17,687 bases of DNA from a virus. The notes beneath the pieces are model-generated. The model did no database searches. It was not told the origin of the DNA and saw only the letters and a program-made list of their open reading frames with translations. Both the position numbers and the translations under genes were made by a program. The stretch is from the UHGV virus genome UHGV-0277874; one strand, 5' to 3'. The stretch's first letter is position 1, and every line of letters begins with the position of its first letter. Below are positions 1 to 17,520 of this stretch, in pieces.

Positions 1-588
1 CTCACCGTCGCCGCAGTAAATGGCGGCATGATTCGGCACCGATGAACCAAAACAGCACAGCAGCACATCGCCCGGCTGCGCCGCTGACAACGGCACCTGA
101 TACAGCCCTGTGGCCTCCAGATTATCCAGATAGAGATTCTGGCCGTTACACCACCAGTCATCCTCACGATGAAAGTCCGGCATCTCAATCCCCGCCAGAT
201 GATAAGCATCCCGGAACAGCGTGTAACAGTCCGTCACCCCGTGCTCAAAGCGCCGCCCGGTAAGATGCGGCACACAGCGGAATTTATGAATCTCACCCCG
301 GCAGACCAGCCACCAAGGCAAATCGCTCTGCACCTGCAGCCGCCTGTCAGCCTCACTCAGCCAGGGCAGACCACCGGGGTGGCTGTGGACCAGCGCCACA
401 ATCTCACCCTGCATCTCTGCCCGCAGCCAGTCCTCCGGCGACATCCGGAAATACGCCTCCGGCTCACCGGAGATATTCACGCAGGGAAAATATCTTTCCC
501 CTTCCGGCGTTCTCACCACGAAGCCGCACGACTCCGCTGGCGCACATCGCCGGGCGTGCGCCAGAATCGCTGATTCTGTCTGTGTCAT
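1..588 (-). CDS. K: Tail assembly protein K (lambda gpK-like, JAMM/MPN plus NlpC/P60); 3' end runs off the window start
   Basis: Minus-strand ATG at 588-586, a few nt after the L stop. Translation begins MTQTESAILAHARRCAPAESCGFVVRTPEGERYFPCVNISGEPEAYFRMSPEDWLRAEMQGEIVALVHSHPGGLPW (HSHP metal-binding motif) and reaches LCCFGSSVPNHAAIYCGDGE at position 1 with no stop seen. Matches lambda K as recalled, and L-K order is as in lambda. Not in the ORF track because it has no stop inside the window. Confidence 0.85.
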   Translation of the reverse strand, partial: MTQTESAILAHARRCAPAESCGFVVRTPEGERYFPCVNISGEPEAYFRMSPEDWLRAEMQGEIVALVHSHPGGLPWLSEADRRLQVQSDLPWWLVCRGEIHKFRCVPHLTGRRFEHGVTDCYTLFRDAYHLAGIEMPDFHREDDWWCNGQNLYLDNLEATGLYQVPLSAAQPGDVLLCCFGSSVPNHAAIYCGDGE

Positions 589-592
589 GGGA

Positions 593-1291
593 TTACTGCG
601 AAAGTTTGTTAATGGAAAGGAAGCCGCCAAAGTTGCCGACGTTATTGCGAAACTTACAGCCGCTCAGGCATTTGCTGCATTTATCCTTCGTGATATCGGA
701 CGTCGGCTGGTCATATTCATCCGCGACAGCCGGACCATGATAACCGCACTCATCACCGCGATAGGTCCAGGTGCAGGTGTTGGCCAGCATGATGCGCCCC
801 GGAAAAACAGCACCATCCGTTTCCGTCGGTGTGGAGAGCACAAAGGAGGCACTGACCGCACTCAGTTCGCTGCACTGCTCGATGCGCCAGAGGCTGATCA
901 CCTCCTGCTCCGGATCGGCGTCGCTGTTTCCGTTGACGAAGTTCACCGCATCCAGAAAACGGGCGTAAACCTTACGCCTGACCACCGTTCCGCCGACCAG
1001 ACTCTGCAGGTCTTCCGCCATCCCGGTGACCATGCCGTGCAGGTTAGAGACCGTCAGTGTCGGACGGGCAGCACTGCCCTTACCGTTCAGTTCAAATCCC
1101 GTCCCCTGAATGGGGTATGCCTGATACTGCCGCCCCTGCCAGGTGACCGGCTCACCTTTTTCGTTCTGCTCATTACAGAAAAAATAACGTTCACCACCGA
1201 CCTCTGTCAGATCGATTTCCCAGAGCACCACCAGGGCTGACTGAGTAAGGCGTGTCGTCTCATGATGTGTTTCCTGTGGAATATCCTGCAT
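593..1291 (-). CDS. L: Minor tail protein L (lambda gpL-like)
   Basis: 232-aa ORF; MQDIPQETHHETTRLTQSALVVLWEIDLTEVGGERYFFCNEQNEKGEPVTWQGRQYQAYPIQGTGFELNGKG... and C-terminus ...KDKCSKCLSGCKFRNNVGNFGGFLSINKLSQ are near-identical to lambda gpL as recalled; same length; sits between M and K. Confidence 0.95.
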   Translation of the reverse strand: MQDIPQETHHETTRLTQSALVVLWEIDLTEVGGERYFFCNEQNEKGEPVTWQGRQYQAYPIQGTGFELNGKGSAARPTLTVSNLHGMVTGMAEDLQSLVGGTVVRRKVYARFLDAVNFVNGNSDADPEQEVISLWRIEQCSELSAVSASFVLSTPTETDGAVFPGRIMLANTCTWTYRGDECGYHGPAVADEYDQPTSDITKDKCSKCLSGCKFRNNVGNFGGFLSINKLSQ

Positions 1292-1300
1292 CAGGGCCTC

Positions 1301-1630
1301 CTATGCCACGACCTGTTCAAAATCTGCCGTTATGGTTACCCACAGCGCCCCCACGCTTGCCGACCATTTACGACAAACCACCCTGATCGGCCTCCAGTCA
1401 TAAGGTGGCGTCCACTGAAATGCGCGGACGCCACCGTGCCGTTCCAGAAAGGCTTTTAAAGATGGGTGTTCACATTTACGAACACGTATCGTCACGCTGT
1501 AAGTCGACAACTGGTTATTCAGTCCCGCCGCACGACGCTGTTCATAACCATCGCCCAGCTTCACTGTCACCACTTTCGGCTCTGATACCACATTCATATC
1601 CGGGCGCACTTTCCAGTGAAACGTCTCCAT
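1301..1630 (-). CDS. M: Minor tail protein M (lambda gpM-like)
   Basis: 109-aa ORF METFHWKVRPDMNVVSEPKVVTVKLGDGYEQRRAAGLNNQLSTYSVT...WTPPYDWRPIRVVCRKWSASVGALWVTITADFEQVVA, same length and pattern as lambda gpM. Its ATG shares one base with the H stop (TGATG). Confidence 0.95.
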   Translation of the reverse strand: METFHWKVRPDMNVVSEPKVVTVKLGDGYEQRRAAGLNNQLSTYSVTIRVRKCEHPSLKAFLERHGGVRAFQWTPPYDWRPIRVVCRKWSASVGALWVTITADFEQVVA

Positions 1631-4600
1631 TACCGATATGCTCCACTAAACCGACCACCATCACGGGCCTGCTGTTGCATAAAGTCCGCTGCCGCTTTTT
1701 TCCCAAGGTCATAAACCACCTTCAGGGCAGCCGGACCTATCTGCCCGTTCGTGCCATCGTTATTGATCTCGATGTTGTACTGCGGGGCAAACATCGCCAT
1801 ACCTGAACCACCAATATCCGCCACAACCCCCAGCTTACCGTCAGCACCACGACGCAGTGGCAGAATGGCTTCAGGTCCAGCTTCCCCCATCACACCCGCG
1901 CCTTTTGCAAAAGCAAAAAACGTCGGACGGTTAACCACCGTGCCACTGTAGCGACTCAAATCAGCCGACTGATAAACACCGCCATCAGCATTAGCTACAA
2001 AATCAAAAGGCAGCGCGGAAGCAATGCCTTTTACCGCTTTCATTAAAGCTATCTGAGCCATGATTCTGGACATATCTGACAGCACAGAAGAGGTGAAGGA
2101 TTTGAAATTGAGTTTGCCTGTAGTACAGAATGTCGCCAGCCAGTCACTCATGCTACTGAACGCAGACGTGAACAACTGTTCCACTGTCCCGGCTGTGTTA
2201 TCCGCATTCTCAGTGACATTCTGGAGTGCACGCAGGACTCCGTTTTTCCAGTCCCCCTGAGCAATTTCAAGCTGTTGCCAGTAACGGCGATTCTCATTCA
2301 GTTGTCGGTTCAGGCTCTCCGTCAGCGCCTGCTCGGCCTTTCTGTAGTCATCCGTGTTATATGTCCCTTTCTGCTCACTATCCCGCCTCAACTGCTCCAG
2401 CTGTTGCTGGTATTTCTGGCGAAGACTCAGTTGTACCTGATATCGCTGCCGCTGCTGATCACCCATACCCACCGTGGCGATATCCAGGTCATGTTGCTGA
2501 CGCTGAGCACGCTCTTCTTCAGCCAGTTGACTGGTCAGCTGAATTGTTTTTTTCTTCAGCTCGTTGAGTGCCGTCTGTTTCTGAAGCTCCTGCTGTTTTA
2601 CATCCAGCAGCGTCAGTGCCTGAATCAGTTCATCTTTACGGGCCAGCACACTCTTTTCATCTGCCGTCAGTTTTTTCCCGTCCAGGTCGCTGATGCGCTG
2701 CTGCAGAGCCAGAAGCTGTTTATGCGCTTCTGTCATCTTTTCAGTGGCAATGCCTGCTGACTGTCTTGCAGCAGCAATCTGCCCTTCCACCTGTGCCTGT
2801 TGCTGACTGTACTGCAGCAATAACCGGGTGGCCTCATCATTACGGGTTTCGCGTGTTTTTTTCTTACCGGATGCCAGGGCTTTCTCGTAACGTTCATTTT
2901 CACGTTGTATCGCCGCATCCCTGACAGCCTGGTCGGCGTACTGCATGGCATTAATACGCGCAATTTCACGCTGATGTCGTGCTGCTTCCGTTTCATTCAT
3001 CCGGTTCAGTGCAGCATTTTCAGCATTACGTCGTTTCTGTTGCTCCTGATAATTCCGCTCTGCCTGCTCTTTTGCATCCTGCAAATCCTTCTGGCGTTTT
3101 TTCTCCTGAAGATCGTTCAGACGCTGCTGATCGTATTCAACCTGAGAAGATGATGCCGTCCAGGGGAGTCTTTTCGCCCGCGACACTTTCTCCTGTAAAG
3201 CGGCAATCTGTTCATCCAGCGAGTCTTCACGACCAATATTCATGGCCGCATCCCAGAAACGACTCCACAAATCAGACAGATACTTCAGCGTACTGCCAAG
3301 CGCATTGAGGTTATTATCAATATCCGCAGTACGCCGACCGGTTTCCTCTGCCAGTGCAGACATGGCTATCCGTGCAGCATCACTGGACCGTCCCTGATCC
3401 CCAAGGACACGTATCTGCTCAAGCTGAGTGGCAGTAAGAAAATGCAGCTCATTGTCCAGAGCCTTCGCGGCATTTACAGGATCATCCTTCAGCCGCTTAA
3501 ACTGATTTATGGTATCGCTGACCGACTGGCCAACCGATCGCTCCATCTGTGCGGCAGCTCTCGCCACCATACCGATATCGTTTCCACGAAATGCACCACT
3601 CCCCACCACCTGAGCCAGCGCACCGGCTGCAGCATGTTGCGTGATACCATTCCCGGAAATAGCACGACTAAGCGTCCACAGCTGCCCGGCAGTGACTCCG
3701 GCATAATGCCCCGTCAGCGACAACTGGCGGTTAAATTCTTCCCCCTCCTTCTGACCGTCATACCAGGCTTTACCCAGACCATAGACGGCCGCGGCAATAC
3801 CGCCAATAACCCCACCTGGCATCATGCCTTTCGGTGACATCAGTGTGTCTATCCATCCGGCACGGTTAGCCAGCGTTATCCCGGATCCCCTCAGCGCACC
3901 TAAATTGCCGCGAGCCAGTTCACCTATCAGAACGCCTATCTCCTGGCGGGCCGCTGCACTTTTCAGACCCAGCGAATGCGTGGCTTTTCCTGCCTGCTCC
4001 ATTTTGCGGATATACACTTCTGCAGCACTGCTTACCCCCAGCTGGGCAGCCTTAGCACGAAGCAACTCAGAAGAAGAAAGATTCTGGCGGGTTGCCTGCT
4101 CTTTAAGCTGACGGATAAACGCCACTTTCTGTCGGGTAGCCTCTTCCTCAGCCTGTGTAAGAACACGGGTTTTCGCCGTAACCTCAGAAATCAGCGCCAG
4201 ATAATCCTGCTGACCAATCCCGCCACTGTTTCTGGCCTGTCGGATCTGCTGCTGAATACGCTGTAATTCCTGCAGACCCGCACTGGCCTGTTTCACACTG
4301 TCAATCTGACGATAAAACGCAGCAGCCGCTTTATCCTGAGCCTCCGCCAGAGCCATGGCCTGCGCCTGTTCCTCGCGCATTTTCTGGCTCAGCGCCTCCA
4401 TGCGCTGGCGGGTTTTCTCCACCTCGCGGGCCATGCGTTCATGAGCCTGTGCGTTCTTCTCCACCGTCTGCGCATGGACGGATGCGGCTGTTGCAGCCGA
4501 AGACGCCGCCTGCGTTGTCTGCCGGGCGGCCTGAGTCTGACGCTCCATAAAACGCTGCATACGGGCAGAAGACCGTTCTGCATCGCTGGCTGCACCATTC

Positions 4601-4686
4601 AGAAGGTTTTTGATACGGGGGATTTCATTTTTAAACTCTGCCGCATCAATCCCCAAATCAATGACCAGGTTGGCTATCTGGTCCAT
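1630..4686 (-). CDS. H: Tail tape measure protein (lambda gpH-like), about 1018 aa from the ATG start
   Basis: Track ORF 1630..4716 starts at a TTG. The in-frame ATG at 4686 is preceded by GGAGG (8-nt spacer) and gives MDQIANLVIDLGIDAAEFKNE..., aligning with the lambda H N-terminus MAEPVGDLVVDLSLDAARF. C-terminus ...NNDGTNGQIGPAALKVVYDLGKKAAADFMQQQARDGGRFSGAYR matches the lambda H C-terminus. Long Q/A/E/R-rich coiled-coil interior; located between G-T and M. Confidence 0.9.
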   Translation of the reverse strand: MDQIANLVIDLGIDAAEFKNEIPRIKNLLNGAASDAERSSARMQRFMERQTQAARQTTQAASSAATAASVHAQTVEKNAQAHERMAREVEKTRQRMEALSQKMREEQAQAMALAEAQDKAAAAFYRQIDSVKQASAGLQELQRIQQQIRQARNSGGIGQQDYLALISEVTAKTRVLTQAEEEATRQKVAFIRQLKEQATRQNLSSSELLRAKAAQLGVSSAAEVYIRKMEQAGKATHSLGLKSAAARQEIGVLIGELARGNLGALRGSGITLANRAGWIDTLMSPKGMMPGGVIGGIAAAVYGLGKAWYDGQKEGEEFNRQLSLTGHYAGVTAGQLWTLSRAISGNGITQHAAAGALAQVVGSGAFRGNDIGMVARAAAQMERSVGQSVSDTINQFKRLKDDPVNAAKALDNELHFLTATQLEQIRVLGDQGRSSDAARIAMSALAEETGRRTADIDNNLNALGSTLKYLSDLWSRFWDAAMNIGREDSLDEQIAALQEKVSRAKRLPWTASSSQVEYDQQRLNDLQEKKRQKDLQDAKEQAERNYQEQQKRRNAENAALNRMNETEAARHQREIARINAMQYADQAVRDAAIQRENERYEKALASGKKKTRETRNDEATRLLLQYSQQQAQVEGQIAAARQSAGIATEKMTEAHKQLLALQQRISDLDGKKLTADEKSVLARKDELIQALTLLDVKQQELQKQTALNELKKKTIQLTSQLAEEERAQRQQHDLDIATVGMGDQQRQRYQVQLSLRQKYQQQLEQLRRDSEQKGTYNTDDYRKAEQALTESLNRQLNENRRYWQQLEIAQGDWKNGVLRALQNVTENADNTAGTVEQLFTSAFSSMSDWLATFCTTGKLNFKSFTSSVLSDMSRIMAQIALMKAVKGIASALPFDFVANADGGVYQSADLSRYSGTVVNRPTFFAFAKGAGVMGEAGPEAILPLRRGADGKLGVVADIGGSGMAMFAPQYNIEINNDGTNGQIGPAALKVVYDLGKKAAADFMQQQARDGGRFSGAYR

Positions 4687-5008
4687 AACGCACACCTCCG
4701 GAAATACCTTCCCCAAGATGCATCAGTTCTTCGTCCGTTCGCTCCGGTATCCCGTTCTCTTCCGGTAAAAGGCTGAAATCAGCCACCGCAGCATCACTGC
4801 TGCCGGACACCATTCTCACGATCAATGCCTTCAGCGAGGCAAACTGCGCATCCATCCACACATCACTGAAGCTCTGCATCCGGAAATAATCGCCCCACTC
4901 ACCAAGCTCAGTGGCCGACATTTCCGACAGCATCCGCCGCCAGTCTGCCCGCCGGAACTCCCGGGCAAGCCGCATGACAAACTGCATTTCCCGCGTCAGG
5001 ACTTTTCC
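4658..5008 (-). CDS. T: T segment of tail assembly chaperone G-T, reached only by a -1 ribosomal frameshift from G (not independently initiated)
   Basis: ORF 4658..4987 (…LAREFRRADWRRMLSEMSATELGEWGDYFRMQ…) resembles lambda gpT. It lies in the -1 frame relative to G, and that frame is open from 5020 through the G stop. Candidate slip site GGAAAAG at 5008-5002 (minus strand), one codon before the G stop. Confidence 0.7.
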   Translation of the reverse strand, partial: GKVLTREMQFVMRLAREFRRADWRRMLSEMSATELGEWGDYFRMQSFSDVWMDAQFASLKALIVRMVSGSSDAAVADFSLLPEENGIPERTDEELMHLGEGISGGVRYGPDSQPGH

Positions 5009-5382
5009 GGCGTCAGCGCCTCATGCTCATCATCCCCGGCATTATCAATGGCCCCCATACCGCTCAGCGACAGAACCATCTCCGCCCCCGCACCCAGGGC
5101 ATCATACGACCATGTTGTAATAACGGATGCGCAAAGCGTCTCTACATCCTTAGACTGATCCGCATTCCACAGTGAGCGGGAAACCAGCCAGGCATTGATA
5201 TCCATCCCCATCCGCAGAAAAGCAATCTGTCGTTCAGCCTCCGGCAGTTCTCCCTCACCGGCATCAAACTTTGCCGTTCGCTGCTGAACAAACGCCAGAT
5301 ATTCAATTCTCTGCAGCCCGGACAGCTCACTGAGCACCACGGACTGTTTTTCATAATTAAACGTGCCCTGTTTCAGAAACAT
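4996..5382 (-). CDS. G: Tail assembly chaperone G (lambda gpG-like)
   Basis: Track ORF 4996..5424. Internal start MFLKQGTFNYEKQSVVLSELSGLQRIEYLA aligns with lambda G MFLK...TLSELSALQRIEHLA; GGAG lies 6 nt upstream of this ATG (the ATG at 5385 is an alternative). Position between V and H, with the T frame overlapping its 3' end. Confidence 0.8.
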   Translation of the reverse strand: MFLKQGTFNYEKQSVVLSELSGLQRIEYLAFVQQRTAKFDAGEGELPEAERQIAFLRMGMDINAWLVSRSLWNADQSKDVETLCASVITTWSYDALGAGAEMVLSLSGMGAIDNAGDDEHEALTPEKS

Positions 5383-5442
5383 CATGTTCTCCACCTGCAA
5401 AAAAGCCCCGGATAACCGGGGCAAATGATGAGTATCGTCCTG

Positions 5443-6186
5443 TTAACCTGCGGCGCTGACAGTCACCGCAGCCACAGCCACAAAATTCCCGTCAGCGGTC
5501 ATGCCCACAATGCTGACACTGCCCTGCTTCACGCCTTTCACCGTGGCTACAAGCCCGTTCAGGGTCACCGTGGCAGTCTGTGGATCTGACGAATGCACAC
5601 TGATCGCTTTGTCACTGGCTCCGTCAGGTTTTACTGTAAAGGTCAGCGTGGTGGTTGCTCCCACTTTTACACTGGCAGATGCCGGTGCCACCGTCAGCCC
5701 GGTAACGCTCACTGTTTCAGTGCCTTCCTCTGCCAGATACGGACGCCCCACACCGCTGATTTTCACAGTGCGGGTCATCACGTCTTTTGAGGCAATGGTT
5801 TTACCCAGTGAACTCAGCCAGCCACGGAAAACATCAACAGTACCGTTGGGATATTTGATACGAAACGCGCAGACTTCACCGGAGTCGAACAACTGAACCA
5901 GTTTTTTCTGCCCGCTGTCACCCGGACGCCAGGCCAGCGTCGCCGAAGTATCACCGACTGATTTCTGCCCCTGGGTTGTCGTTTTCCAGTCTGCATCTTC
6001 ATCATCGAGATAAGTGTCATCTTCTGCATCAGCGGTCATTTCGCCAGGTTGCAGATCCTTCACCATCGCAAGACGCAGCCAGTCAGTGTCCGACAAAGGA
6101 TTCGCAAACGCATCGCCGTTGCCGGTATACATCCAGAACGTCGTCCCCGCACCTTTCGTCTTTGCCAGTGGATTTGGTGTGGTCAT
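5443..6186 (-). CDS. V: Major tail tube protein V (lambda gpV-like) with C-terminal Ig-like (Big_2) domain
   Basis: Start at ATG 6186 preceded by AAGGAGGTGGTA. MTTPNPLAKTKGAGTTFWMYTGNGDAFANPLSDTDWLRLAMVKDLQPGEMTA...YLDDEDADW...FRIKYPNGTVDVFRGW... closely matches lambda gpV. C-terminal segment ...VTGLTVAPASASVKVGATTTLTFTVKPDGASDK... is Ig-like as in lambda V. 247 aa versus 246 in lambda. Confidence 0.9.
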   Translation of the reverse strand: MTTPNPLAKTKGAGTTFWMYTGNGDAFANPLSDTDWLRLAMVKDLQPGEMTADAEDDTYLDDEDADWKTTTQGQKSVGDTSATLAWRPGDSGQKKLVQLFDSGEVCAFRIKYPNGTVDVFRGWLSSLGKTIASKDVMTRTVKISGVGRPYLAEEGTETVSVTGLTVAPASASVKVGATTTLTFTVKPDGASDKAISVHSSDPQTATVTLNGLVATVKGVKQGSVSIVGMTADGNFVAVAAVTVSAAG

Positions 6187-6196
6187 TACCACCTCC

Positions 6197-6598
6197 TTAA
6201 TTCGTGTACGTGATCTGGTACGTGATTTCCGCCATCGCCCAGGTGGCCATCTCATTATCACGTTGATAGTTAAAACCGAGTGGGATCAGGGTGTCGATGA
6301 GTCCGGAAAGTGCCGGTATATCATTCAGGGCAGGAAAAATGGTGCTCTCCATCCACATATCCAGCTCTGAATCCGGTGCCTGTGCCCGGATGAAGACGGC
6401 AATATGCAGAACAGCCTGCCAGTCATCTTCATCCGTCATTTTTCCGGTGTACTGAGCATCACTCAGCCACACCGCCACGGCGGGCAGTTCCTGCGCATCA
6501 ATAAATGCCGGAAGCCCGTCAAAAAACGTGGCGCTGTCTCCACACTGTTCCCGAAGGCGTGCCAGTACGACCTGGCGGATTTGTGTATGTCGGTTCAT
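6197..6598 (-). CDS. U: Tail terminator protein U (lambda gpU-like)
   Basis: From internal ATG (residue 5 of track ORF 6197..6610): MNRHTQIRQVVLARLREQCGDSATFFDGLPAFIDAQELPAVAVWLSDAQYTGKMTDEDDWQAVLHIAVFI...ITYQITYTN aligns with lambda gpU (MKHTELRAAVLDALEKHDTGATFFDGRPAVFDEADFPAVAVYLTGAEYTGE...). ATGA overlap with the Z-frame stop, as in lambda Z/U. Confidence 0.9.
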   Translation of the reverse strand: MNRHTQIRQVVLARLREQCGDSATFFDGLPAFIDAQELPAVAVWLSDAQYTGKMTDEDDWQAVLHIAVFIRAQAPDSELDMWMESTIFPALNDIPALSGLIDTLIPLGFNYQRDNEMATWAMAEITYQITYTN

Positions 6599-6738
6599 CG
6601 GGTCAGCCATAATCTCAGTTGTTGTTTCAGTGCATACCCCAGCTGTTTCGGCATTTCCGCAGCAATGATGCGGTCGCGGGCATCTTCAAATGCCTGTGTC
6701 AGCGGTCCGGACAGCGGGATTTTCACTACCGACGGGCT
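6595..6738 (-). pseudogene. Z: 3'-terminal remnant of a tail completion gene Z homologue (about 45 codons, no start, 5' part missing)
   Basis: Minus-strand frame translates ...SVVKIPLSGPLTQAFEDARDRIIAAEMPKQLGYALKQQLRLWLTR*, matching the lambda gpZ C-terminus (...VVKIPMAVPLTTAFKQNIERIRRERLPKELGYALQHQLRMVIKR). That frame is closed by an in-frame TAA at 6741-6739, and the upstream DNA is the capsid-fusion ORF in another frame. Confidence 0.7.
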
Positions 6739-8297
6739 TTATCCAGCGATGCCACGTCCATTGCAGCGCTCTCCAGTACGTTTGCATGTTTCGCTTTATC
6801 GAACAGACTTACATTATCTGTGGAGATTTTCGGGTTAGACGTCAGAATGGCATAAACCAGATCGGCAATAGTGGATTTCGCCGCACGGCCCAGTTTCATC
6901 GGGACATCGGTCAGCATATTCAGATCATCATTGATAATGGCCTGACGGGTGATACTGAACAGCTCGCCATAGGTCGCCAGTGCAATAGTGGCCTGTTTAT
7001 CTCCGGTGGTGACGTATTTATATTCCGCCCCTTCACGCACCTGACGCAGAGCACTGAAGCCCCCCATACCCACACGATGGGCAATTTTAAAATCAGACAA
7101 CTGACCTTTCCGCGTCCACTGTTCATAGGTTTCAGGGGCATCTTCCCAGCCCTGCAGAATGGCTTTGTTTGCAACATCCAGCAGAATATTACCGAAGTCA
7201 GACGTACTGTGTGTGAACGCCGCACCGACCATCTGCATCGGGTTATAACTGGAAACCCCAATACCCCGTTCAGTCAGTGACATACGGGCATATTCACGCA
7301 GGGTCATCCCGTTGTAGACATTATCACGTTCGGTTTTTTCAAATCCGGCACGCGCCATCAGCGCCTGGCGGATCCCGTCCCCCACAAAATTACCGTTACC
7401 GGCATAAATATGAGCCGGGGTATTTTTATTGGATGGCGTGGACTCGCGCCCCATCTCGTTCAACAGCTTTTCGCGGGCCTGCTCCAGCGAACATTCAGGA
7501 TCGGCAAGACACTGAGCCTGCAGCGTCTGATAACGCCCGCCAAACATGGCAAACAGATCATTAATACCGTTTACACGCGCTTTTTGCTCTGCCAGTACCT
7601 GCGCACGGATACTGTTTTCATCCACCACGGGTGCTGCTGCCTGCACTGGCGTCCGGGAGGCTGCAGGTTCATCATCCTGTACGCGTGGAGCACTGTTGCG
7701 TGGCGGAGTAATCATGTTTCGAATGGATTCCGGCATCTTTTTAAATTCCTCTGTACGTTTTGACTGAATACATGCCATTGCCTTAACGGCTGGCGTCACC
7801 TGATCAGCAAATCCATGTGCCAGACATTCGGCACCGGACATCCAGGTCTCATCCGCCAGCATGGCAGCAATTTCATCGGTGGTTTTCCCGGTTTTCTGTG
7901 CATAAGCGGGTAACAGAACCGCCTCAACCTTATCGAGCAGGTCGGCATAGGTGCGCATGTCCTCCGCATCACCGCCCGTAAAGCCAAATGGTTTATGAAT
8001 CATCATGAAGGTGTTTTCCGGCATAATGACCGGGTTTCCCACCATCGCAATGACCGACGCCATTGACGCCGCCACACCGTCGACATAAACGGTAATGGAT
8101 GCACCATGTGTTTTCAGCGCATTAAAAATGGCGATGCCTTCAAAGACATCGCCACCCGGTGAATTGATATGGAGATTAATGTGGGTGATATCGCCCAGTG
8201 CATTCAGATCACTGATAAACTGCTTCGCTGTAACACCCCAGAAACCAATCTCGTCATAAATATAAATATCCGCGTCACTCTGGTGACCAGCCTGCAT
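6726..8297 (-). CDS. ClpP-family prohead protease fused to scaffold-like and major-capsid-like sequence (Gifsy-2-type multi-part head gene); probably 3'-truncated
   Basis: Track ORF 6726..8558 begins at a TTG inside the portal gene. The first ATG after the portal stop (8297) gives MQAGHQSDADIYIYDEIGFWGVTAKQFISDL...INSPGGDVFEGIAIFNALK...MASVIAMVG..., a ClpP/S14-like protease domain. This is followed by a helical linker and a segment (…TYGELFSITRQAIINDDLNMLTDVPMKLGRAAKSTIADL…) that I judge to be HK97-fold capsid-like. The ORF stops (TAG 6728-6726) exactly at the junction with the Z remnant. Confidence 0.65.
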   Translation of the reverse strand: MQAGHQSDADIYIYDEIGFWGVTAKQFISDLNALGDITHINLHINSPGGDVFEGIAIFNALKTHGASITVYVDGVAASMASVIAMVGNPVIMPENTFMMIHKPFGFTGGDAEDMRTYADLLDKVEAVLLPAYAQKTGKTTDEIAAMLADETWMSGAECLAHGFADQVTPAVKAMACIQSKRTEEFKKMPESIRNMITPPRNSAPRVQDDEPAASRTPVQAAAPVVDENSIRAQVLAEQKARVNGINDLFAMFGGRYQTLQAQCLADPECSLEQAREKLLNEMGRESTPSNKNTPAHIYAGNGNFVGDGIRQALMARAGFEKTERDNVYNGMTLREYARMSLTERGIGVSSYNPMQMVGAAFTHSTSDFGNILLDVANKAILQGWEDAPETYEQWTRKGQLSDFKIAHRVGMGGFSALRQVREGAEYKYVTTGDKQATIALATYGELFSITRQAIINDDLNMLTDVPMKLGRAAKSTIADLVYAILTSNPKISTDNVSLFDKAKHANVLESAAMDVASLDKARR

Positions 8298-8310
8298 CCT
8301 GAACCAGGAA

Positions 8311-9819
8311 TTATTCTTCGGACTGGTCGTCGGTGTGCTGCGGCTCCTGTCGTTTCGTTGCGGCACTGCTGCCTCCTTTATCACTGGCCGGATCGGTATC
8401 AAATACCAGATCCAGCTTGCGGTTTTCATCAATTTCGGCCTTGCGCCGACGTTTGACATCATCCGGATTACGACCACCAGCACGTACCCAGTCTGATTCT
8501 GTCGCCGCTCCACCACGAATCTGGATTTTCCAGGCCTCAGCCTCCTTAACAGGGTCAATCCACGGCATCACTGGTCCGGAATACACCGCGGTATACAGTG
8601 AAGAACGGTCAAGATCACGGGGTAGCCTGATAACACCGGATGCCACAGCCTGTTTCAGCCAGGCACGATACATCGGGCGGGTGACGGCACCAATAAACCA
8701 GTCCTGCAGGATCAGGTAGCCATCAGTAGACTCAACCAGTTCCTGACGCTGGGCGCTGTAAGTGCCGTTATAGTTGCGTGCCGTACTGGAAAAACTCAGA
8801 CGACTGCCCGCCGCCACGGCACGCAACTGACCATTACGAAAAGTTTCAAGGTTAGGATTGGGACGATCCGACTTCACCATTCCGATTTCTTCGCCGGGTT
8901 TCAGATCGTCGTAAATAATGCCTGGCTGAATGGTAAGCTCGCGTTCCTTATCCTTGCTGCCATTACCATCCGGTTCATAGCTCTGCCCGTCGCCTTTCCG
9001 GATGTACATCCCCAGAGCAGCGGCGATCCTTGCTGCAGTCAGCTCAGAATCTTCATACTCTTTCAGGGCACTGAGGCGGATCAGCACACCGGACAACAAA
9101 GACGTCCCGCGCATCTGGTGCAGACGGCGAACAAATTTAAGATGCAGCATTCGCTCTGCATCCACTTCTTTGGTTTCCATCTGCCGTCCGGATACAGGAC
9201 GACTTTTATACACCAGATATTTTTCGGGACGCCCCCAGTCATCAACAAACACGCCCTGATTCAGCCTGTTGCTCTCATCACTGGTCATGGGAATAAAGTC
9301 TGGCTCGAGCGCCTCCAGCCAGAAATGAACACCGGCAGAAGGCGTCAGGCTGTTTATGCGCCCGGAAACCATCTGGGCAAACACCTCACCATCGCGCAGC
9401 CAGGTACGCAGCATCAGACGTTCCAGCATCGGACGGGTAAACTGCCCGGTGACTTCCGGGCTGACAGACCATTCACTCCATCGGGTGCGTATCTCCGCTG
9501 CCAGATCACGGGCAATGGCCCCATTGCGTAATACCGGATGTGGCTCGACAATAATCCCGTTTTTCCCCACCACCCGTTCTTCCAGCTTGTCAAATACACC
9601 AATAACCAGATCGTGGTTGTTATCAAGGTAACGGGCCTGCTCACGTAACGACACGGCCCCGTACTGGCTTAACTGGTCGGCAGTTCGGTTTTCCCGCCGG
9701 GCTTTGTGTGTCCGCGTCGTTTTTACGGCCTCATAAGCCTGGATCACCGCACGGGAACGCAGCCTTGCCGCTTTCCATCCTGGTGAAAAAACGCCAATCA
9801 CATCATCAAGAATTGCCAT
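8311..9819 (-). CDS. Portal protein
   Basis: Track ORF 8311..9891 starts at a GTG. The in-frame ATG at 9819 (MAILDDVIGVFSPGWKAARLRSRAVIQAYEAVK...) overlaps the gpW stop as TGATG. About 502 aa; sits between gpW and the prohead protease as in lambda (W-B-C); acidic C-terminus ...QHTDDQSEE. Confidence 0.8.
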   Translation of the reverse strand: MAILDDVIGVFSPGWKAARLRSRAVIQAYEAVKTTRTHKARRENRTADQLSQYGAVSLREQARYLDNNHDLVIGVFDKLEERVVGKNGIIVEPHPVLRNGAIARDLAAEIRTRWSEWSVSPEVTGQFTRPMLERLMLRTWLRDGEVFAQMVSGRINSLTPSAGVHFWLEALEPDFIPMTSDESNRLNQGVFVDDWGRPEKYLVYKSRPVSGRQMETKEVDAERMLHLKFVRRLHQMRGTSLLSGVLIRLSALKEYEDSELTAARIAAALGMYIRKGDGQSYEPDGNGSKDKERELTIQPGIIYDDLKPGEEIGMVKSDRPNPNLETFRNGQLRAVAAGSRLSFSSTARNYNGTYSAQRQELVESTDGYLILQDWFIGAVTRPMYRAWLKQAVASGVIRLPRDLDRSSLYTAVYSGPVMPWIDPVKEAEAWKIQIRGGAATESDWVRAGGRNPDDVKRRRKAEIDENRKLDLVFDTDPASDKGGSSAATKRQEPQHTDDQSEE

Positions 9820-10037
9820 CAGAACCTCGCCAGCCGGTACCCGGGATGCCCCCGTCGTCGTGTAATCAGAGCCGCAAGGCGGCGCTCCCACTCCTGCCGT
9901 CCCTGCCGGATCTCAGATAAGTTTTCCATGGTCATCTGCTGACCATTAAAGGTGACGGATTTTCCGTCCAGCACCGCCATTTCAGCTTCCGTATAACGCT
10001 GAATCATGGCTTCGATATCATTCTGGTTCATAACCAT
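9819..10037 (-). CDS. W: Head-tail joining / DNA stabilisation protein (lambda gpW-like)
   Basis: About 70 aa; C-terminal ...RRLAALITRRRGHPGYRLARF resembles lambda gpW ...QTGMTQRRRGPAGFYV. Lies between terminase large subunit and portal, exactly as W in lambda. Start is ATG 10037 or ATG 10031 (the latter overlaps the terminase stop as ATGA). Confidence 0.7.
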   Translation of the reverse strand: MVMNQNDIEAMIQRYTEAEMAVLDGKSVTFNGQQMTMENLSEIRQGRQEWERRLAALITRRRGHPGYRLARF

Positions 10038-12127
10038 CCTCCGGAAGTCAGCCAGGGGTTAACATCGTCAGTTACTGTTTTCTTCCGTTTTTGTTTTTTA
10101 ACAGGCGTGGATACCGGTTCCGGTGAGGGTGACGGTTCGGTACTGTCCGGGACACACTCCAGCCAGGTTTCCCGGCTCGCCCATTCCGGTGCATCCGGCC
10201 AGCGGATCTTTTCGTATCCATGCAGAATGACCAGAGCCTCGGCATACACCATCAGGTCAAAGGCTTCGTTGGCACCGCGACCCGGCTTACTCCATTTCCC
10301 GTCACTGCTCCGCTCTTCATACGTCAGTTCGTCGTAAAACCAGCTCCCCAGCCAGTCAGGGAAATGCACATAGCCGGGACCTGGCGAGTCACGCCATAAC
10401 GCGTTATTCACCCGGTCTTTCAGTGCATCCGTCTGAAGAAGCCAGAGCGGCACATCACCTGCGGCCTGCGCCCGTCGGCCCGTTCGTCCGGTGTTATCAG
10501 GGAATGTACGGGTGATCAGTTTTGCGCGCCGGATGCTGTCGCCCTTAAACAGGTAAATACGTTTACCAAGGCCATCACGACGGCAACGACGCCAGAATTT
10601 ATAGGCATTATCAGTGACCCCGTCTTCACCGCCGGAGTCCACCGCCATTGCCATCAGTCGCATTTGTTGAGAAGGATCGGAGGCCAGCGGCCAGCTTTTA
10701 TGAAAAACATCCGTCAGCAGGACATCCCAGTCTTCCGGATAGCTGGCCGGATCAATTCGCTGGCTCTCCCCGTCGCAGTCACTGCGCAATGACTGCATGA
10801 TATTGTAACGATCAATAATCCAGCGTTCGCCACGACTGCCATAGCCCGTTACCTGAACCACAAAACGGCGATGACGTCCCGCCTGCACATCCACTGTCGC
10901 CACAAGGAAATTAACGCCATCCGGCACACTGCGGGAAGGAACTGGCTCTGCCCGCTGCTCAAGCAGTTCACTTTTTCGTTGCTCCATGCTGGCACGAGGA
11001 AGATAAGGCAATCCCCAGTCGGTGTTGATAACCGCCCTGAGTGTTTCTTCGCTTCCTGTCGCTTCATACTCCTGTTCTGCAGTCAGTAATTTGTAAACCA
11101 GTTGCGCCCAGGTCTGATACGCAGCAGCTGGCCCTTCCATCCAGAAACTGGCGATACGGGAGCGGCGCGGTTCACCGGAAACGTTGCCGTTACGATCAAT
11201 GACCTGACCTTCACGCAACCAGACTCCTGCACTATTGAGCTCACGCTTTTTCTCCGCAGTGATAATGCCGCTGCAGTGCGGGCAAAGTAGATACGCCGCC
11301 TCACTGGCTTTAAAGGGATCCGGTTCATTACGGTAGCCGGTCATGGCATCCATAGCTGGCTGAAAATATTCACCGCAGTGCGGACATGGCCAGTACCAGC
11401 GGCGGCGGTCACCACGATTGTAAAGGGAAAGAATACCAGTCGTCGGTGGCGCTTCATGAGGCGACTTACGTCGCCATTTGCTATCGCAGATGTCACGTCC
11501 CGGCGAGCTCTCCACCAGAGTCATCCCGGCGGACATAAATGTGGTGGTACGTTTTGAGGCCAGGGAGAAACCATCACCCTCGCTGTCGATATTCTCCGGA
11601 AAACGGTCGTAATCGGTTAAGGCGACAAACCGGTAATCCGACGACGACATAATGTTGACCGAGGGCCAACCAATTTTAAGGAACGAGCCATCCCTGAACG
11701 TCTTATAATGGACATTATTGTCGTTACGACGTGGACTCATTCTTTTCTTTACCGCAGCACTGCTTCTGAACGTTCTGTCGAGGCGCTTTTTAGAATGCTC
11801 GCGGGCCTTATCTTCGGTCATCTGCACAACGAGCATGTCCGAAGGATCGCAAACGATGGTATAGACAATCCATCCATCGATCAGACCAATGGTCTTCCCT
11901 GTTCGCGCAGGACCAACAAAAATCACCGCATCGTATTCACGCGATGCCAGGCAGTTCATGGGCTCAATGATGTAGGGTGTCAGTTCAGGATCCCATGGCA
12001 CCGAGTTACCAGCCCCCTTGGGAACACGCATGAATTTTTTAACAGCCTCCGAAATCGGCATGCGACGTGGTGGGGAAAATCCTGCCGATATGTCCCTTCC
12101 CAAATTTCGGGCTGATGAAAAACCCAT
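10028..12127 (-). CDS. Terminase large subunit (GpA-type ATPase/nuclease)
   Basis: 699-aa ORF with ATG 12127 preceded by AGGAGG. Walker A-like motif VGPARTGKT near the N-terminus; size and position immediately downstream of the small subunit; diverged from lambda gpA in sequence. Confidence 0.9.
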   Translation of the reverse strand: MGFSSARNLGRDISAGFSPPRRMPISEAVKKFMRVPKGAGNSVPWDPELTPYIIEPMNCLASREYDAVIFVGPARTGKTIGLIDGWIVYTIVCDPSDMLVVQMTEDKAREHSKKRLDRTFRSSAAVKKRMSPRRNDNNVHYKTFRDGSFLKIGWPSVNIMSSSDYRFVALTDYDRFPENIDSEGDGFSLASKRTTTFMSAGMTLVESSPGRDICDSKWRRKSPHEAPPTTGILSLYNRGDRRRWYWPCPHCGEYFQPAMDAMTGYRNEPDPFKASEAAYLLCPHCSGIITAEKKRELNSAGVWLREGQVIDRNGNVSGEPRRSRIASFWMEGPAAAYQTWAQLVYKLLTAEQEYEATGSEETLRAVINTDWGLPYLPRASMEQRKSELLEQRAEPVPSRSVPDGVNFLVATVDVQAGRHRRFVVQVTGYGSRGERWIIDRYNIMQSLRSDCDGESQRIDPASYPEDWDVLLTDVFHKSWPLASDPSQQMRLMAMAVDSGGEDGVTDNAYKFWRRCRRDGLGKRIYLFKGDSIRRAKLITRTFPDNTGRTGRRAQAAGDVPLWLLQTDALKDRVNNALWRDSPGPGYVHFPDWLGSWFYDELTYEERSSDGKWSKPGRGANEAFDLMVYAEALVILHGYEKIRWPDAPEWASRETWLECVPDSTEPSPSPEPVSTPVKKQKRKKTVTDDVNPWLTSGGWL

Positions 12128-12135
12128 TATTCCTC

Positions 12136-12663
12136 CTAGAGACTCTCTCCTTCCTCATCAGGAATTAATTCAGCAGCACAAGCCTCGTAGGATTTTTCCT
12201 GAAGAGTGTATCGCAGGTCATCAATGGCCTGTTGTACAACGCCGACGGCCTGAGGAGTCAGGGCGCAATCGCGTTCAAGAACATCCGGAATTGTCTCCAG
12301 AACCTGGACGACAGCCTTTCTCATGGACGAATAGACGATGACTACTTCATCAACTGGGATGAGTTTTCGCTGCTCCTTTTCCAGCTTGATCCTTTCATTT
12401 TCAGACTGGTACCAGTCCTTTCTCTCTTTCGGCTCCATACGGGATGGATCATGAACAGAGTCTGCTGCCTCATGCTTCACACTAAACAGGGCGGGCCCGA
12501 CATGCTGCAGGGCGTAAACGGGGTTCCCCCTGACAGTCGCAGCCACAGGAGTGTTGGCCGCGAGGAGCCGTTTTTTTACTGTGTCCCGGTGAAGCCCAAA
12601 GGCCTCGGCGATTTTAAAAACACTCCAGTAATAAGCATCACCGATCCCGCTCACATTTGACAT
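12136..12663 (-). CDS. Terminase small subunit (Nu1-like, N-terminal winged HTH)
   Basis: Track ORF 12136..12675. The ATG at 12663 has GGAG 6 nt upstream. MSNVSGIGDAYYWSVFKIAEAFGLHRDTVKKRLLAANTPVAATVRGNPVYAL (HTH) followed by ...ERKDWYQSENERIKLEKEQRKL, comparable to lambda Nu1 ...IKWYAERDAEIENEKLRREVEEL. Lies immediately upstream of the large subunit, about 185 bp from the candidate cosN. Confidence 0.85.
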   Translation of the reverse strand: MSNVSGIGDAYYWSVFKIAEAFGLHRDTVKKRLLAANTPVAATVRGNPVYALQHVGPALFSVKHEAADSVHDPSRMEPKERKDWYQSENERIKLEKEQRKLIPVDEVVIVYSSMRKAVVQVLETIPDVLERDCALTPQAVGVVQQAIDDLRYTLQEKSYEACAAELIPDEEGESL

Positions 12664-12835
12664 AAGCAACTCCATCTGGCAGGTGAAAATCAGGTTTATT
12701 TATATATTTCAATTAATTGCAAACTGGTCTAATGACAGGAAGAAAAAAATATTGTACAGGTAAAAAGAGAAATAACTTTTAATTATCAATAAATTACCAA
12801 ACATGCTGCCGCCGCCATGGAAATGCAAAAACTAG

Positions 12836-12870
12836 CCTTTTTCCGCGACGCTCCCGCCCCGTGGCAGGGG
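12836..12870 (-). other. Candidate cohesive-end site (cosN-like)
   Basis: Minus-strand sequence ...GCCACG GGGCGGGAGCGT CGCGG AAAAAGG... resembles lambda cosN GTTACG GGGCGGCGACCT CGCGGG TTTTCGC (ACGGGGCGG and CGCGG identical), about 185 bp upstream of the terminase small subunit start, the same spacing as lambda cosN to Nu1. Putative 12-nt cohesive end GGGCGGGAGCGT = plus 12848-12859. It is a GC-rich island in an AT-rich intergenic region. Confidence 0.4.
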
Positions 12871-13235: not shown

Positions 13236-13442
13236 TCAGTCAACCACCAGGGAATAATCCTTCGAATTCTTATCGTGCTTCACCAACGCTGCCTCAATTG
13301 CCCTGAATGCTTCCAGAGACACCTGATGTTCTATACATGCAATTACAACATCCGGGTAACTCATAGAAATGGTGCTATTAAGCATATTTTTTACACGAAT
13401 CAGATCCAACGAGAGTTCATCAGCAGATTGTTCTTTATTCAT
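13236..13442 (-). CDS. Hypothetical small protein (68 aa), moron-region gene of unknown function
   Basis: [71 protein letters not shown] with ATG start at 13442; AT-rich codon usage like neighbouring cargo genes; divergent from ydfO-like gene. No confident family assignment. Confidence 0.55.
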
Positions 13443-13742
13443 TTTGTCGCTCCATGCGTTTGCTCGTCATCTAGCGGTTAAAATATTACTTCAAATCTTA
13501 CTGCATAAAAGAGGAAAAGTATGAAAGTTTGAGTACATCGACCTTACATACATCTGTCGGTTGCATATCCCTCCTGGATGCCAGCAAGGCTCAATTTTGT
13601 TACGCAATCAACACTATTCATTAAAAACAGGCTTAATATTTGACATAAATCATCAACAAAACACAAAGAGGTCAGACCAGATTGAAACAATAAACACGAT
13701 AATGCAAACTACGCGCCATCGTATCACATGGAAGGTTTACCA

Positions 13743-14174
13743 ATGGCTCAGGCTGCCATTTTTAAAGAAATATTCGATCAAGTACGTAAAGATTTAAACT
13801 GTGAATTATTTTATTCTGAGCTAAAACGTCACAATATCTCACTTTATATTTACTATTTAGCCACAGATAATATTCACATTGTGTTAGAAAACGACAACAT
13901 AGTGTTAGTAAAAGGACTCAAAAAGGTTGTAAATGTTAAATTCTCCAGAAACAAACATCTTATAGAGACCTCCTATAATAAGTTGAAATCAAAAGAAATC
14001 ACATTTCAACAATACAGGGAAAATCTTGCTAAAGCAGGAGTTTTCCGATGGGTTACAAATATCCAGGAACACCAAAGATATTACTATGCCTTTGATAACT
14101 CATTACTATTTACTGAAAGCATCCAGAAAATTACTGAAAGCATCCAGAAAACTACACAGATCTTACCACGCTAA
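13743..14174 (+). CDS. ydfO: YdfO/YbcV-family protein (DUF-type, prophage cargo gene)
   Basis: Track ORF 13728..14174. The ATG at 13743 has GGAAGG about 10 nt upstream. [52 protein letters not shown]...[37 protein letters not shown]... matches my recollection of K-12 Qin YdfO; gene order ydfO-gnsB-cspI as in Qin. Confidence 0.8.
14110..14151 (+). repeat. Perfect 21-bp tandem duplication (ttactgaaagcatccagaaaa x2) inside the 3' end of the ydfO-like gene
   Basis: Read directly; in frame, giving [14 protein letters not shown] in the protein. Confidence 0.9.
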
Positions 14175-14277
14175 ACCATAACGTCCGGCTTCTCTCACTC
14201 CTGAGCCGGACTGCATTGGTTTAATAAAAACCATCAACAATTGTGATTTAGATATTCGGAACCATTCAAATATAACA

Positions 14278-14299
14278 AAACCCCGTAAAAACGAGGTTT
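14278..14299. terminator. Candidate bidirectional rho-independent terminator between convergent ydfO-like and gnsB-like genes
   Basis: Inverted repeat aaaccccg-taaaaa-cgaggttt (8-bp stem with one G-U pair on the minus-strand RNA, 6-nt loop) followed by a U-rich tract on the minus strand; 27 nt downstream of the gnsB-like stop. Confidence 0.4.
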
Positions 14300-14325
14300 A
14301 TGGATAAATTTTATTATTGAATACA

Positions 14326-14499
14326 TCAGATTAAATTAATCTTGACATCATAGCTTTCAAGACCCGTCATTTTTTCCCGTGCGGTAAACTGAATACTGGT
14401 AACTTCTTTCCCGGTCTTTTTCTTAAGTTCAATAATTTTTTTTGTTATATATTCAGAAATATCTGCTTCTGCTTTTGTTTTTAAGTCTTCAATATTCAT
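14326..14499 (-). CDS. gnsB: GnsA/GnsB-family small protein (57 aa)
   Basis: Not in the track (under 60 aa). ATG at 14499 with GAGGA upstream; translation MNIEDLKTKAEADISEYITKKIIELKKKTGKEVTSIQFTAREKMTGLESYDVKINLI, with the conserved FTAREKMTGLESYDVKI block of the Gns family as recalled; TGA stop at 14328-14326. Confidence 0.9.
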   Translation of the reverse strand: MNIEDLKTKAEADISEYITKKIIELKKKTGKEVTSIQFTAREKMTGLESYDVKINLI

Positions 14500-14670
14500 C
14501 ATTTCCTCTTTTAGTCTGTTATGACTTTCCAGTTACACAGTAAGTCGATTATATGGTGCAAACGTGTAAAAGATAAGATGAAACATCGCAATAATCAACA
14601 TACGATAGTCTAAATTTTACACAAACAGACAAAGAGAATTTTCCTGAATTATCAATGCAATAGCATCAAA

Positions 14671-14901
14671 TCAACTCAAGAGCCTTATTGCTGCTTCCAG
14701 AATTTCTTCTGAAGTAACATGTCGATCCGCGGCTACATAAATGACTTTATGATCTCCGGTCAGAGATGGAAACCCTGCGGCCATTACAGTAAGGTGTGTT
14801 TTTTCGCCATTTGGATATTCACGCATGATGGTGTTAACTCCAGTCATCGCTGGCACTACCACTGCTGGTTCAGAGTTAAAAAAAACTATGATTTTTTTCA
14901 T
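14671..14901 (-). CDS. Hypothetical protein (about 76 aa from the MKK start; 90 aa if from ATG 14943)
   Basis: ORF ...MKKIIVFFNSEPAVVVPAMTGVNTIMREYPNGEKTHLTVMAAGFPSLTGDHKVIYVAADRHVTSEEILEAAIRLLS; globular-looking composition unlike the overlapping plus-strand ORF 14719..14985 (W/H/C-rich, judged spurious). Between gnsB-like and cspI-like genes; no family recognised. Confidence 0.5.
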   Translation of the reverse strand: MKKIIVFFNSEPAVVVPAMTGVNTIMREYPNGEKTHLTVMAAGFPSLTGDHKVIYVAADRHVTSEEILEAAIRLLS

Positions 14902-14945
14902 GATGTTACCGTAGTATGTGAGTATCCATCGAATAGACACCAAGC

Positions 14946-14982
14946 AAAAAAGCTCCCGAAGGAGCCTTCATTTTCACTTTTT
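14946..14982. terminator. Possible weak bidirectional terminator hairpin
   Basis: caaaaaa-GCTCC-cgaa-GGAGC-cttcattttcactttttt: 5-bp GC stem with tetraloop, flanked by an A-tract upstream and T-tract downstream; about 200 nt downstream of the cspI-like stop on the minus strand. Confidence 0.3.
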
Positions 14983-15172
14983 TAAATCCAACGACAGACG
15001 GCTGGCATTTAAGTATTGTGAAATATTATCAAATGTAATCATCATTGATTTACAAAAGATACATTTTGCCCCGAAAGGATTCATGTCAGAAACATCAAAA
15101 GATGATGTTCTATACTGGGAACCATGACAACACGGGCATCTAAAGTGAATATGGTTTGTAATATTGTCTACC

Positions 15173-17302: not shown

Positions 17303-17489
17303 ATCCTCACCCCGATGTACACAGATGGTGCAATATGTTTGAAAAGATCGGAGTCTATGGGTTAGTTTTTATAGCAAACGTTGTTCTCAACGGCGCTAAA
17401 AAACAGACACATTAAAAATGTGGGTAATTATTTTAAAAGAAAATCATATATTAAATAATAATACGAGATATGTTTTCATATTTAGTGTA

Positions 17490-17511: not shown

Positions 17512-17520
17512 GAAAAGCCT

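What the first reader, a model, noticed from the sequence alone, without database searches (positions are those of the whole stretch)
6595..6760. Apparent deletion junction: truncated capsid-fusion gene abuts a 3' remnant of Z
The ClpP-scaffold-capsid ORF terminates (TAG 6728-6726) exactly where homology to the lambda gpZ C-terminus begins in a different frame; the Z frame is closed by a stop at 6741-6739, leaving only about 45 Z codons and no start. Between a major capsid gene and U one expects the capsid 3' end, head completion/connector genes (FI/FII-like) and a full Z of about 190 aa. Their absence implies a deletion of roughly 2-3 kb that would leave the prophage unable to build heads or join tails, while the tail and lysis genes still look intact.
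Basis: partly seen in the sequence, partly recalled or inferred. Interest (0 to 1): 0.6.

Follow-up and report, generated by a model that had tools for sequence, protein, structure and literature searches.

The report
Head-gene deletion in Qin-type prophage
A lambda-like prophage of E. coli has lost exactly 1,536 bases, from the middle of its capsid gene to near the end of tail gene Z, which should stop it making its own virions; this is ordinary prophage decay, inherited by one bacterial lineage.

Summary
Read on the minus strand, the ClpP-protease/scaffold/capsid fusion ORF stops at TAG 6728-6726. The last 44 codons of a lambda-Z-type gene follow in another frame. That frame is closed upstream by TAA 6741-6739.

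Compared with the plaque-forming phage Tritos and a near-identical E. coli prophage, the window lacks exactly 1,536 bp. The junction lies between bases 6731 and 6730 and shows no microhomology.

What is lost:
- the last 130 capsid codons; the capsid profile is covered only at positions 7-140 of 262
- a head decoration ("cement") gene
- an FII/Gifsy-2-type head-tail joining gene
- the first 152 of 196 Z codons

The other 23 genes of the window are full length. The deletion is not an assembly artefact. The exact truncated 546-aa product occurs on 40 public contigs, and all seven carrier loci I fetched hold the identical junction. No phage record and none of 5,426 complete E. coli genomes has the junction, while 1,807 of those genomes keep the missing segment.

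This is a lineage-specific inactivating deletion in a Qin-site, mEp460/cdtI/Tritos-type prophage. Interest is low.

The parts
6726..8366 (-). Truncated ClpP-like prohead protease / scaffold / major capsid fusion gene. It is 546 codons from the GTG start used in RefSeq annotation of relatives; alternative ATG starts lie at 8462 and 8297. It ends 5 nt past the junction at TAG 6728-6726.
   Evidence: Pfam finds CLP_protease complete but Phage_capsid_4 only at positions 7-140 of 262, against 7-261 in Tritos. Intact relatives are 675 aa. The exact 546-aa product is on 40 public contigs.
6730..6731 (-). Deletion junction. 1,536 bp are missing relative to Tritos (L001 3371-4906) and Es_ST80. The join is blunt, with 0 nt of microhomology.
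   Evidence: The identical junction is present in L006 and L009-L014.
6595..6729 (-). 3' remnant of the lambda-Z-type tail completion / Ne1 gene: codons 153-196 of 196 plus the stop. An in-frame GTG at 6726-6724 gives a 43-codon ORF. The frame is closed upstream by TAA 6741-6739.
   Evidence: tblastn shows 100% identity to Z residues 153-196. Pfam Minor_tail_Z 149-190 of 190, E=1.8e-10. Frame read.
6197..6598 (-). Intact U-type tail terminator gene immediately downstream. Its ATG overlaps the Z stop (ATGA).
   Evidence: 100% identity over 133 of 133 aa to the Es_ST80 protein. Sequence read.
8314..9819 (-). Intact portal gene immediately upstream. Its 3' end overlaps the annotated start of the fusion gene.
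   Evidence: 99.8% identity over 502 of 502 aa.

Best explanation
The window is the late (lysis, packaging, head, tail) region of a lambdoid prophage of the mEp460 / cdtI / Tritos type. In a close relative (Es_ST80) this prophage sits at the Qin site, between rspB and pinQ/ydfK. One illegitimate-recombination event removed 1,536 bp. It joined codon 578 of the 707-codon Tritos capsid-fusion gene (numbered from the Tritos-annotated start) to the third base of codon 152 of Z, with no shared bases at the join.

The result is a product that keeps the protease, the scaffold and only the N-terminal half of the HK97-type capsid domain. There is no decoration protein, no FII-like head-tail joining protein, and only a 44-codon Z stump. 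The deletion was then inherited by a bacterial lineage, and carriers differ only in distal recombination patches.

Shown: the deletion, its exact limits, its direction (loss here, not gain elsewhere), its presence in many independent data sets, and the intactness of the neighbouring genes.

Inferred: on induction the prophage can still lyse the cell and express terminase, portal and most tail proteins. It cannot assemble capsids. At best it makes Z-less tails, so it cannot produce infectious particles unaided.

The molecular route is also inferred. It was a homology-independent break-and-join or topoisomerase-type event, not replication slippage between repeats.
For: Limits and size of the deletion:
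- Window 5400-8600 matches Tritos with a single mismatch on both sides of a 1,536-bp gap. Es_ST80 shows the same breakpoints.

Direction of the change:
- Both flanking genes are truncated versions of complete Pfam domains: capsid 7-140 of 262, Z 149-190 of 190.
- The missing segment encodes Phage_cement_2, Gifsy-2/Phage_attach and Minor_tail_Z proteins.
- The missing segment is present over at least 80% of its length in 1,807 of 5,426 complete E. coli genomes.
- Tritos, which has the intact arrangement, is a plaque-forming siphovirus seen by electron microscopy (PMC9928086).

The deletion is real and inherited:
- The exact 546-aa product is on 40 contigs, the longest 5.1 Mb, from NCBI, ENA and Logan.
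- Seven fetched loci carry the identical junction.
- One of them differs from the window only in homopolymer lengths, which suggests a different sequencing chemistry.
- Differences among carriers are clustered far from the junction.

Single lesion:
- All 23 other genes are full length and 93-100% identical to Es_ST80.

Precedent:
- UMNF18 carries an independent deletion in the same interval.
- Other Qin-site prophages show every stage of decay.
Against: No experiment shows loss of virion production. Co-resident lambdoid prophages with the same head module could supply the missing proteins, or repair the gene by recombination, as described for E. coli O157 Sakai (PMC2669165). I could not examine the early region of the carriers (integrase, repressor, replication) or their chromosomal background. 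The blunt junction is unusual for E. coli illegitimate recombination, which is described as relying on microhomologies of about 9 bp (PMC11372144). The mechanism of the break and join therefore stays open.
Confidence: 0.93

Rival explanations
1. The junction is an assembly or sequencing artefact, a misjoin between two prophage copies, and the real DNA is intact.
For: E. coli genomes often hold several copies of this module: a median of 2 and up to 12 places per genome match the arms. That invites misassembly. None of 5,426 complete genomes shows the junction.
Against: The exact truncated protein is on 40 contigs from NCBI isolates, ENA metagenome assemblies and Logan assemblies of separate runs. 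All seven fetched loci have the same junction. One carries homopolymer-length errors typical of a different sequencing chemistry. There is no repeat at the breakpoints that could cause a misjoin.
Confidence: 0.02
2. The prophage is defective alone but still mobile. Co-resident lambdoid prophages with the same Gifsy-2-type head module supply capsid, decoration, FII-like and Z proteins in trans, or restore the genes by homologous recombination.
For: Terminase, portal, protease and all other tail and lysis genes are intact. About one third of complete E. coli genomes hold near-identical copies of the missing segment, up to 6 places per genome. Carriers show recombination patches from other lambdoid prophages. 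Such rescue is documented in O157 Sakai (PMC2669165).
Against: I have no information on other prophages in the carrier genomes. The carriers are almost identical to each other around the junction. That fits vertical inheritance in one clone better than spread as particles.
Confidence: 0.2
3. The remodelled locus is kept for a function. Either it is a tail-only bacteriocin (F-type tailocin-like) released by the intact lysis cassette, or the truncated protease-scaffold-half-capsid protein poisons capsid assembly of related superinfecting phages.
For: Tail and lysis genes are intact while head formation is knocked out. The allele persists in many samples.
Against: Terminase, portal and protease genes are still intact and undecayed, which suggests the deletion is recent rather than part of a streamlined tailocin. 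The deletion also destroys Z, a tail gene. Near-zero divergence among carriers gives no signal of selection. The allele is rare compared with the intact form: 40 contigs against hundreds.
Confidence: 0.04
4. The compact form is ancestral and the relatives gained 1.5 kb by insertion.
For: None beyond the bare length difference.
Against: Both genes flanking the junction are partial copies of complete protein domains. The extra segment completes both of them and adds two standard head/neck genes in the usual order.
Confidence: 0.01

Closest known systems
Escherichia phage Tritos (prophage 3 of E. coli LF82, OV696610) and its relatives cdtI, mEp460, Ayreon, phi458 and PhiR40_1
   Same: Tritos is 98.9% identical to window 1-12859, and differs by a single mismatch from window 5400-8600 outside the gap. 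The gene order is the same: terminase small and large subunits, adaptor, portal, ClpP-scaffold-capsid fusion, then Z, U, V, G, T, H, M, L, K.
   Different: These functional phages have the full 675/707-aa fusion gene, the decoration gene, the FII-like gene and a 196-aa Z. The window lacks 1,536 bp of this. The lysis/moron side of the window (12.9-17.7 kb) is mosaic relative to Tritos.
Qin-site prophage of E. coli Es_ST80_L1_NDM_10_2017 (NZ_CP031215, 956-1003 kb)
   Same: It is 99.4% identical over the whole window and shows the same breakpoints when aligned. It carries the Qin-type genes essD, rrrQ, rzpQ, cspI, ynfN, gnsB, dicB, hokD and pinQ.
   Different: It keeps the 1,536 bp. It has other lesions outside the window: a frameshifted integrase and a frameshifted cro.
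Cryptic prophage Qin of E. coli K-12 and similar reduced forms
   Same: Loci with the same flanking chromosomal and lysis/moron genes. Decay is by deletion of morphogenetic genes (loci L017, L021, L023). That these loci resemble the K-12 form is my own recognition of the gene names.
   Different: The reduced forms have lost nearly all head and tail genes. The window has lost only 1.5 kb.
Degraded prophage of E. coli UMNF18 (NZ_AGTD01000001, about 3.246 Mb)
   Same: Here too a capsid-gene remnant directly abuts a 3' remnant of Z, and the decoration and FII-like genes are lost.
   Different: It is an independent event with other breakpoints. It runs from just after the natural capsid stop to about Z codon 62, roughly 0.87 kb. 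That prophage has many further truncations.

Membership tests
Defective (deletion-bearing) lambdoid prophage of the mEp460/cdtI/Tritos type | Collinear, high-identity match to functional phages of the type on both sides of the lesion | tested here: met
   Tritos differs by a single mismatch from window 5400-8600 outside the gap. Sixteen phage records cover the region.
Defective (deletion-bearing) lambdoid prophage of the mEp460/cdtI/Tritos type | Essential morphogenetic genes truncated or absent relative to functional members | tested here: met
   Capsid domain 7-140 of 262, Z 149-190 of 190, decoration and FII-like genes absent.
Defective (deletion-bearing) lambdoid prophage of the mEp460/cdtI/Tritos type | Failure to produce infectious particles | not testable with these tools
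   Needs induction, plaque assay and electron microscopy.
Complete HK97-fold major capsid protein (Pfam Phage_capsid_4) | Full-length coverage of the capsid profile | tested here: not met
   Positions 7-140 of 262 in the window, 7-261 in Tritos.
Lambda gpZ family (Pfam Minor_tail_Z, PHROG 27 tail completion / Ne1) | Full-length protein of about 190 aa | tested here: not met
   Only profile positions 149-190 remain, as 44 codons.
F-type (lambda-tail-derived) tailocin locus | Tail and lysis genes present; head and packaging genes absent (as I recall the definition) | tested here: not met
   Terminase small and large subunits, adaptor, portal and protease are intact and full length, and the tail gene Z is destroyed.
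Microhomology-dependent illegitimate recombination (lambda Spi- type, about 9-bp microhomology; PMC11372144) | Shared bases at the two breakpoints | tested here: not met
   There are 0 nt of overlap. No shared word of 6 nt or more lies within 40 nt of either breakpoint.

The most novel reading that the evidence does not exclude
The deletion allele is kept because it is useful. The retained protease-scaffold-half-capsid protein could act as a dominant-negative poison of capsid assembly for incoming phages with the same head module, a prophage-encoded exclusion function. Alternatively, the locus could release tail-only killing particles through its intact lysis cassette.
Probability: 0.03. Interest if true: 0.5.

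Novelty: already known. Interest (0 to 1): 0.12.

Why it matters
It matters mainly for annotation. This prophage should be scored as defective, with the capsid fusion and Z as pseudogenes, even though tools that count intact phage genes would probably call it complete. The exact junction (GCTGGATAAAGCCCGTC|GGTAGTGAAAATCCCGC) is a clean clonal marker for the carrier lineage. It also gives a dated-looking early snapshot of prophage decay at the Qin site: one lesion, everything else still intact. Nothing here challenges current understanding.

Tried and rejected
- I searched for the 34-nt junction in the species-representative genomes, IMG/VR viral contigs and JGI metagenome contigs. All three gave 0 hits.
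- A 400-nt query spanning the junction found no contiguous match in 5,426 complete E. coli genomes.
- Exact-protein look-ups from three ATG starts (8297, 8462, 8459) found nothing. The GTG start at 8366 did.
- The 43-aa Z-remnant ORF is in public collections as "VmtZ". Three of the four contigs simply end inside an intact Z, so they say nothing about the deletion. Only L006 was informative.
- I looked up the Rz protein hoping to walk into the early region of carrier strains. It returned only non-carriers, because Rz is too common.
- A literature search for the carriers' accession numbers found nothing.
- A sequence search of the Protein Data Bank with the intact fusion listed only ClpP chains among the 60 of 107 hits shown, and no capsid.
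- No promoter-like site lies around the junction. The one terminator-like site is on the wrong strand.
- Rejected ideas: assembly artefact, insertion in the relatives, an in-frame fusion (1,536 is a multiple of 3 but the two genes are in different frames), and a repeat-mediated or IS-mediated deletion (no repeat and no IS at the junction).

Full report
**What is in the sequence.** All genes of the window run on the minus strand. Read that way, a 610-codon ORF (8558-6726) ends ...LDKARR* at TAG 6728-6726. In another frame, codons from 6729 to 6598 encode VVKIPLSGPLTQAFEDARDRIIAAEMPKQLGYALKQQLRLWLTR*. That frame is closed upstream by TAA 6741-6739. One detail differs: the Z frame does contain an in-frame GTG at 6726-6724, sharing its G with the capsid TAG, so a 43-codon ORF exists.

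**Comparison with relatives.** Window 5400-8600 hits 16 phage records over its full length. Each hit comes in two pieces that span about 4.72-4.74 kb of the record against 3.2 kb of query. The best is phage Tritos, which differs by a single mismatch. Base-by-base extension places the left arm at window 8600-6731 and the right arm at 6730-5400. The arms abut without overlap, and Tritos carries 1,536 bp between them, at L001 3371-4906. The closest chromosomal relative is the prophage of E. coli Es_ST80, 99.4% identical over all 17,687 bases. It gives the same two breakpoints, the same 1,536 bp and the same flanking bases.

The breakpoints share no bases. No word of 6 nt or more is common to the 40 nt on either side of them. 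The length is a multiple of three, but the capsid and Z frames differ, so the capsid frame stops after one new codon.

**What was lost.** In Tritos the interval holds four things:
- the last 130 codons of the 707-codon capsid fusion gene
- a 122-aa gene
- a 91-aa gene
- the first 152 codons (151 complete, the 152nd partly) of the 196-codon Z/Ne1 gene

Pfam and PHROGs name the 122-aa protein Phage_cement_2 / head decoration. They name the 91-aa protein Gifsy-2 family, with a weak Phage_attach (lambda FII) match. The 196-aa protein is Minor_tail_Z / tail completion-Ne1.

The truncated fusion keeps a complete CLP_protease domain, but its capsid domain covers only profile positions 7-140 of 262. 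The intact protein covers 7-261. The Z remnant covers positions 149-190 of 190. Two partial domains flank the junction and the missing segment completes both. This fixes the direction of the change as a deletion here, not an insertion elsewhere.

**Is it real?** The junction is absent from all phage records and from 5,426 complete E. coli genomes. It is also absent from species-representative genomes, IMG/VR and JGI metagenome contigs. Taken alone, that could suggest an artefact.

The exact 546-aa truncated product, read from the GTG at 8366 that RefSeq uses in relatives, says otherwise. It is on record on 40 contigs, the longest 5.1 Mb, from NCBI, ENA and Logan. Six fetched carriers (L009-L014) are 99.6-100% identical to the window and hold the identical junction, as does a 1.5-kb Logan contig, L006. 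L006 differs from the window only by four homopolymer-length differences, which points to another sequencing chemistry.

Differences among carriers are confined to patches in K, in the tape-measure gene and upstream of the holin gene. Apart from two isolated differences in one carrier (L012, at 5316 and 5548), there are none within several kb of the junction. So the deletion happened once and was inherited. Distal parts were later exchanged with other lambdoid prophages.

**State of the rest.** I compared the window with the 26 complete genes annotated in Es_ST80. Twenty-three are full length at 93-100% protein identity, and one more is the truncated capsid fusion. These include the holin, lysozyme, Rz, both terminase subunits, adaptor, portal, U, V, G, T, H, M and L. 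The decoration and FII-like genes give no hit, and Z matches only residues 153-196. K is open to the window's edge and is intact in carrier L009. The missing segment is present over at least 80% of its length in 1,807 of 5,426 complete genomes. The intact arrangement is therefore the rule.

**Context.** In Es_ST80 the prophage lies between rspB and pinQ/ydfK. It carries dicB, hokD, essD, rrrQ, rzpQ, cspI, ynfN and gnsB, which mark it as the Qin site. Other prophages sharing the same Rz protein range from complete to forms that retain almost no structural genes. UMNF18 carries an independent deletion of about 0.87 kb inside the same interval, again leaving a capsid remnant next to a Z remnant. 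Tritos, with the intact arrangement, forms plaques and is a siphovirus with a 57-nm head and a 163-nm tail (PMC9928086).

**Mechanism and consequences (inferred).** Late genes of lambdoid phages are read as one long transcript (textbook knowledge). The deletion removes no promoter-like or terminator-like site that I could detect, so the downstream tail genes should still be expressed.

Half an HK97-type capsid domain cannot form shells. With no FII-like joining protein and no Z, heads and infectious tails are both excluded. My recollection of the lambda literature is that Z-minus tails look normal but give non-infectious particles. The element should therefore still kill and lyse its host on induction while releasing no virions of its own.

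Rescue by co-resident prophages is conceivable, either through supplied proteins or through recombination, as shown for defective prophages of O157 Sakai (PMC2669165). I could not test this.

The blunt join does not fit the microhomology-dependent illegitimate recombination usually seen in E. coli (PMC11372144). A homology-independent break-and-ligate or topoisomerase-type event is my best guess and remains unproven.

**Verdict.** This is routine prophage decay, specific to one lineage. It is useful for annotation and as a clonal marker, but it is not surprising.

Noticed in passing
L008 3200-3860 (E. coli UMNF18, NZ_AGTD01000001 about 3,246,3xx-3,247,4xx): An independent deletion of about 0.87 kb lies in the same capsid-to-Z interval. 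The natural capsid stop abuts a 134-codon Z remnant, in a prophage with many other truncations.
   Followed up: partly
window 6724-6728: The deletion created a stop-start overlap, TAGTG: the capsid TAG and an in-frame GTG of the Z remnant. Public gene callers annotate the same 43-aa ORF as 'VmtZ' where contigs end inside Z. Whether the stump is translated is unknown.
   Followed up: partly
window 13236-15385: A moron cluster typical of the Qin prophage sits between the small-terminase gene and the lysis genes: cspI, ynfQ, ynfR, ynfN, gnsB and an opposite-strand DUF1398 gene. In LF82 the CspI and YnfN genes of Tritos are reported as highly expressed in the lysogen.
   Followed up: no
window 13728-14174 (+): The DUF1398 gene is 93% identical to the Es_ST80 copy and differs from it by a 7-residue insertion (143 against 136 aa).
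   Followed up: no
window 4-582, 2560-4402 and 17252-17536: Carriers of the deletion differ from the window only in three dense SNP patches: K, the tape-measure gene, and upstream of the holin gene. These look like recombination with other lambdoid prophages.
   Followed up: partly
L009 50-508 and L011 51-509 (about 170 nt beyond window base 17687): An IS200/IS605-type Y1 transposase gene lies just beyond the window's right end in two carriers. Es_ST80 instead has cspB about 0.4 kb beyond ynfU.
   Followed up: no
window 8297-8558: The start of the capsid fusion gene is annotated at three different places in relatives, equivalent to window 8462, 8366 and 8297. The two upstream starts overlap the 3' end of the portal gene.
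   Followed up: no
window 4985-5010 (-): The G gene ends ...CCGGAAAAGTCCTGA, with the T frame open across it. Lambda's GGGAAAG slippery heptamer is not there, so a G-T frameshift would need a different slip site.
   Followed up: no
L012 near its end (window 1286): One Logan carrier contig has a 13-nt insertion (GGATATTCCACAG) at codon 2 of L, 22 nt from the contig end. It is probably an assembly-end artefact.
   Followed up: no
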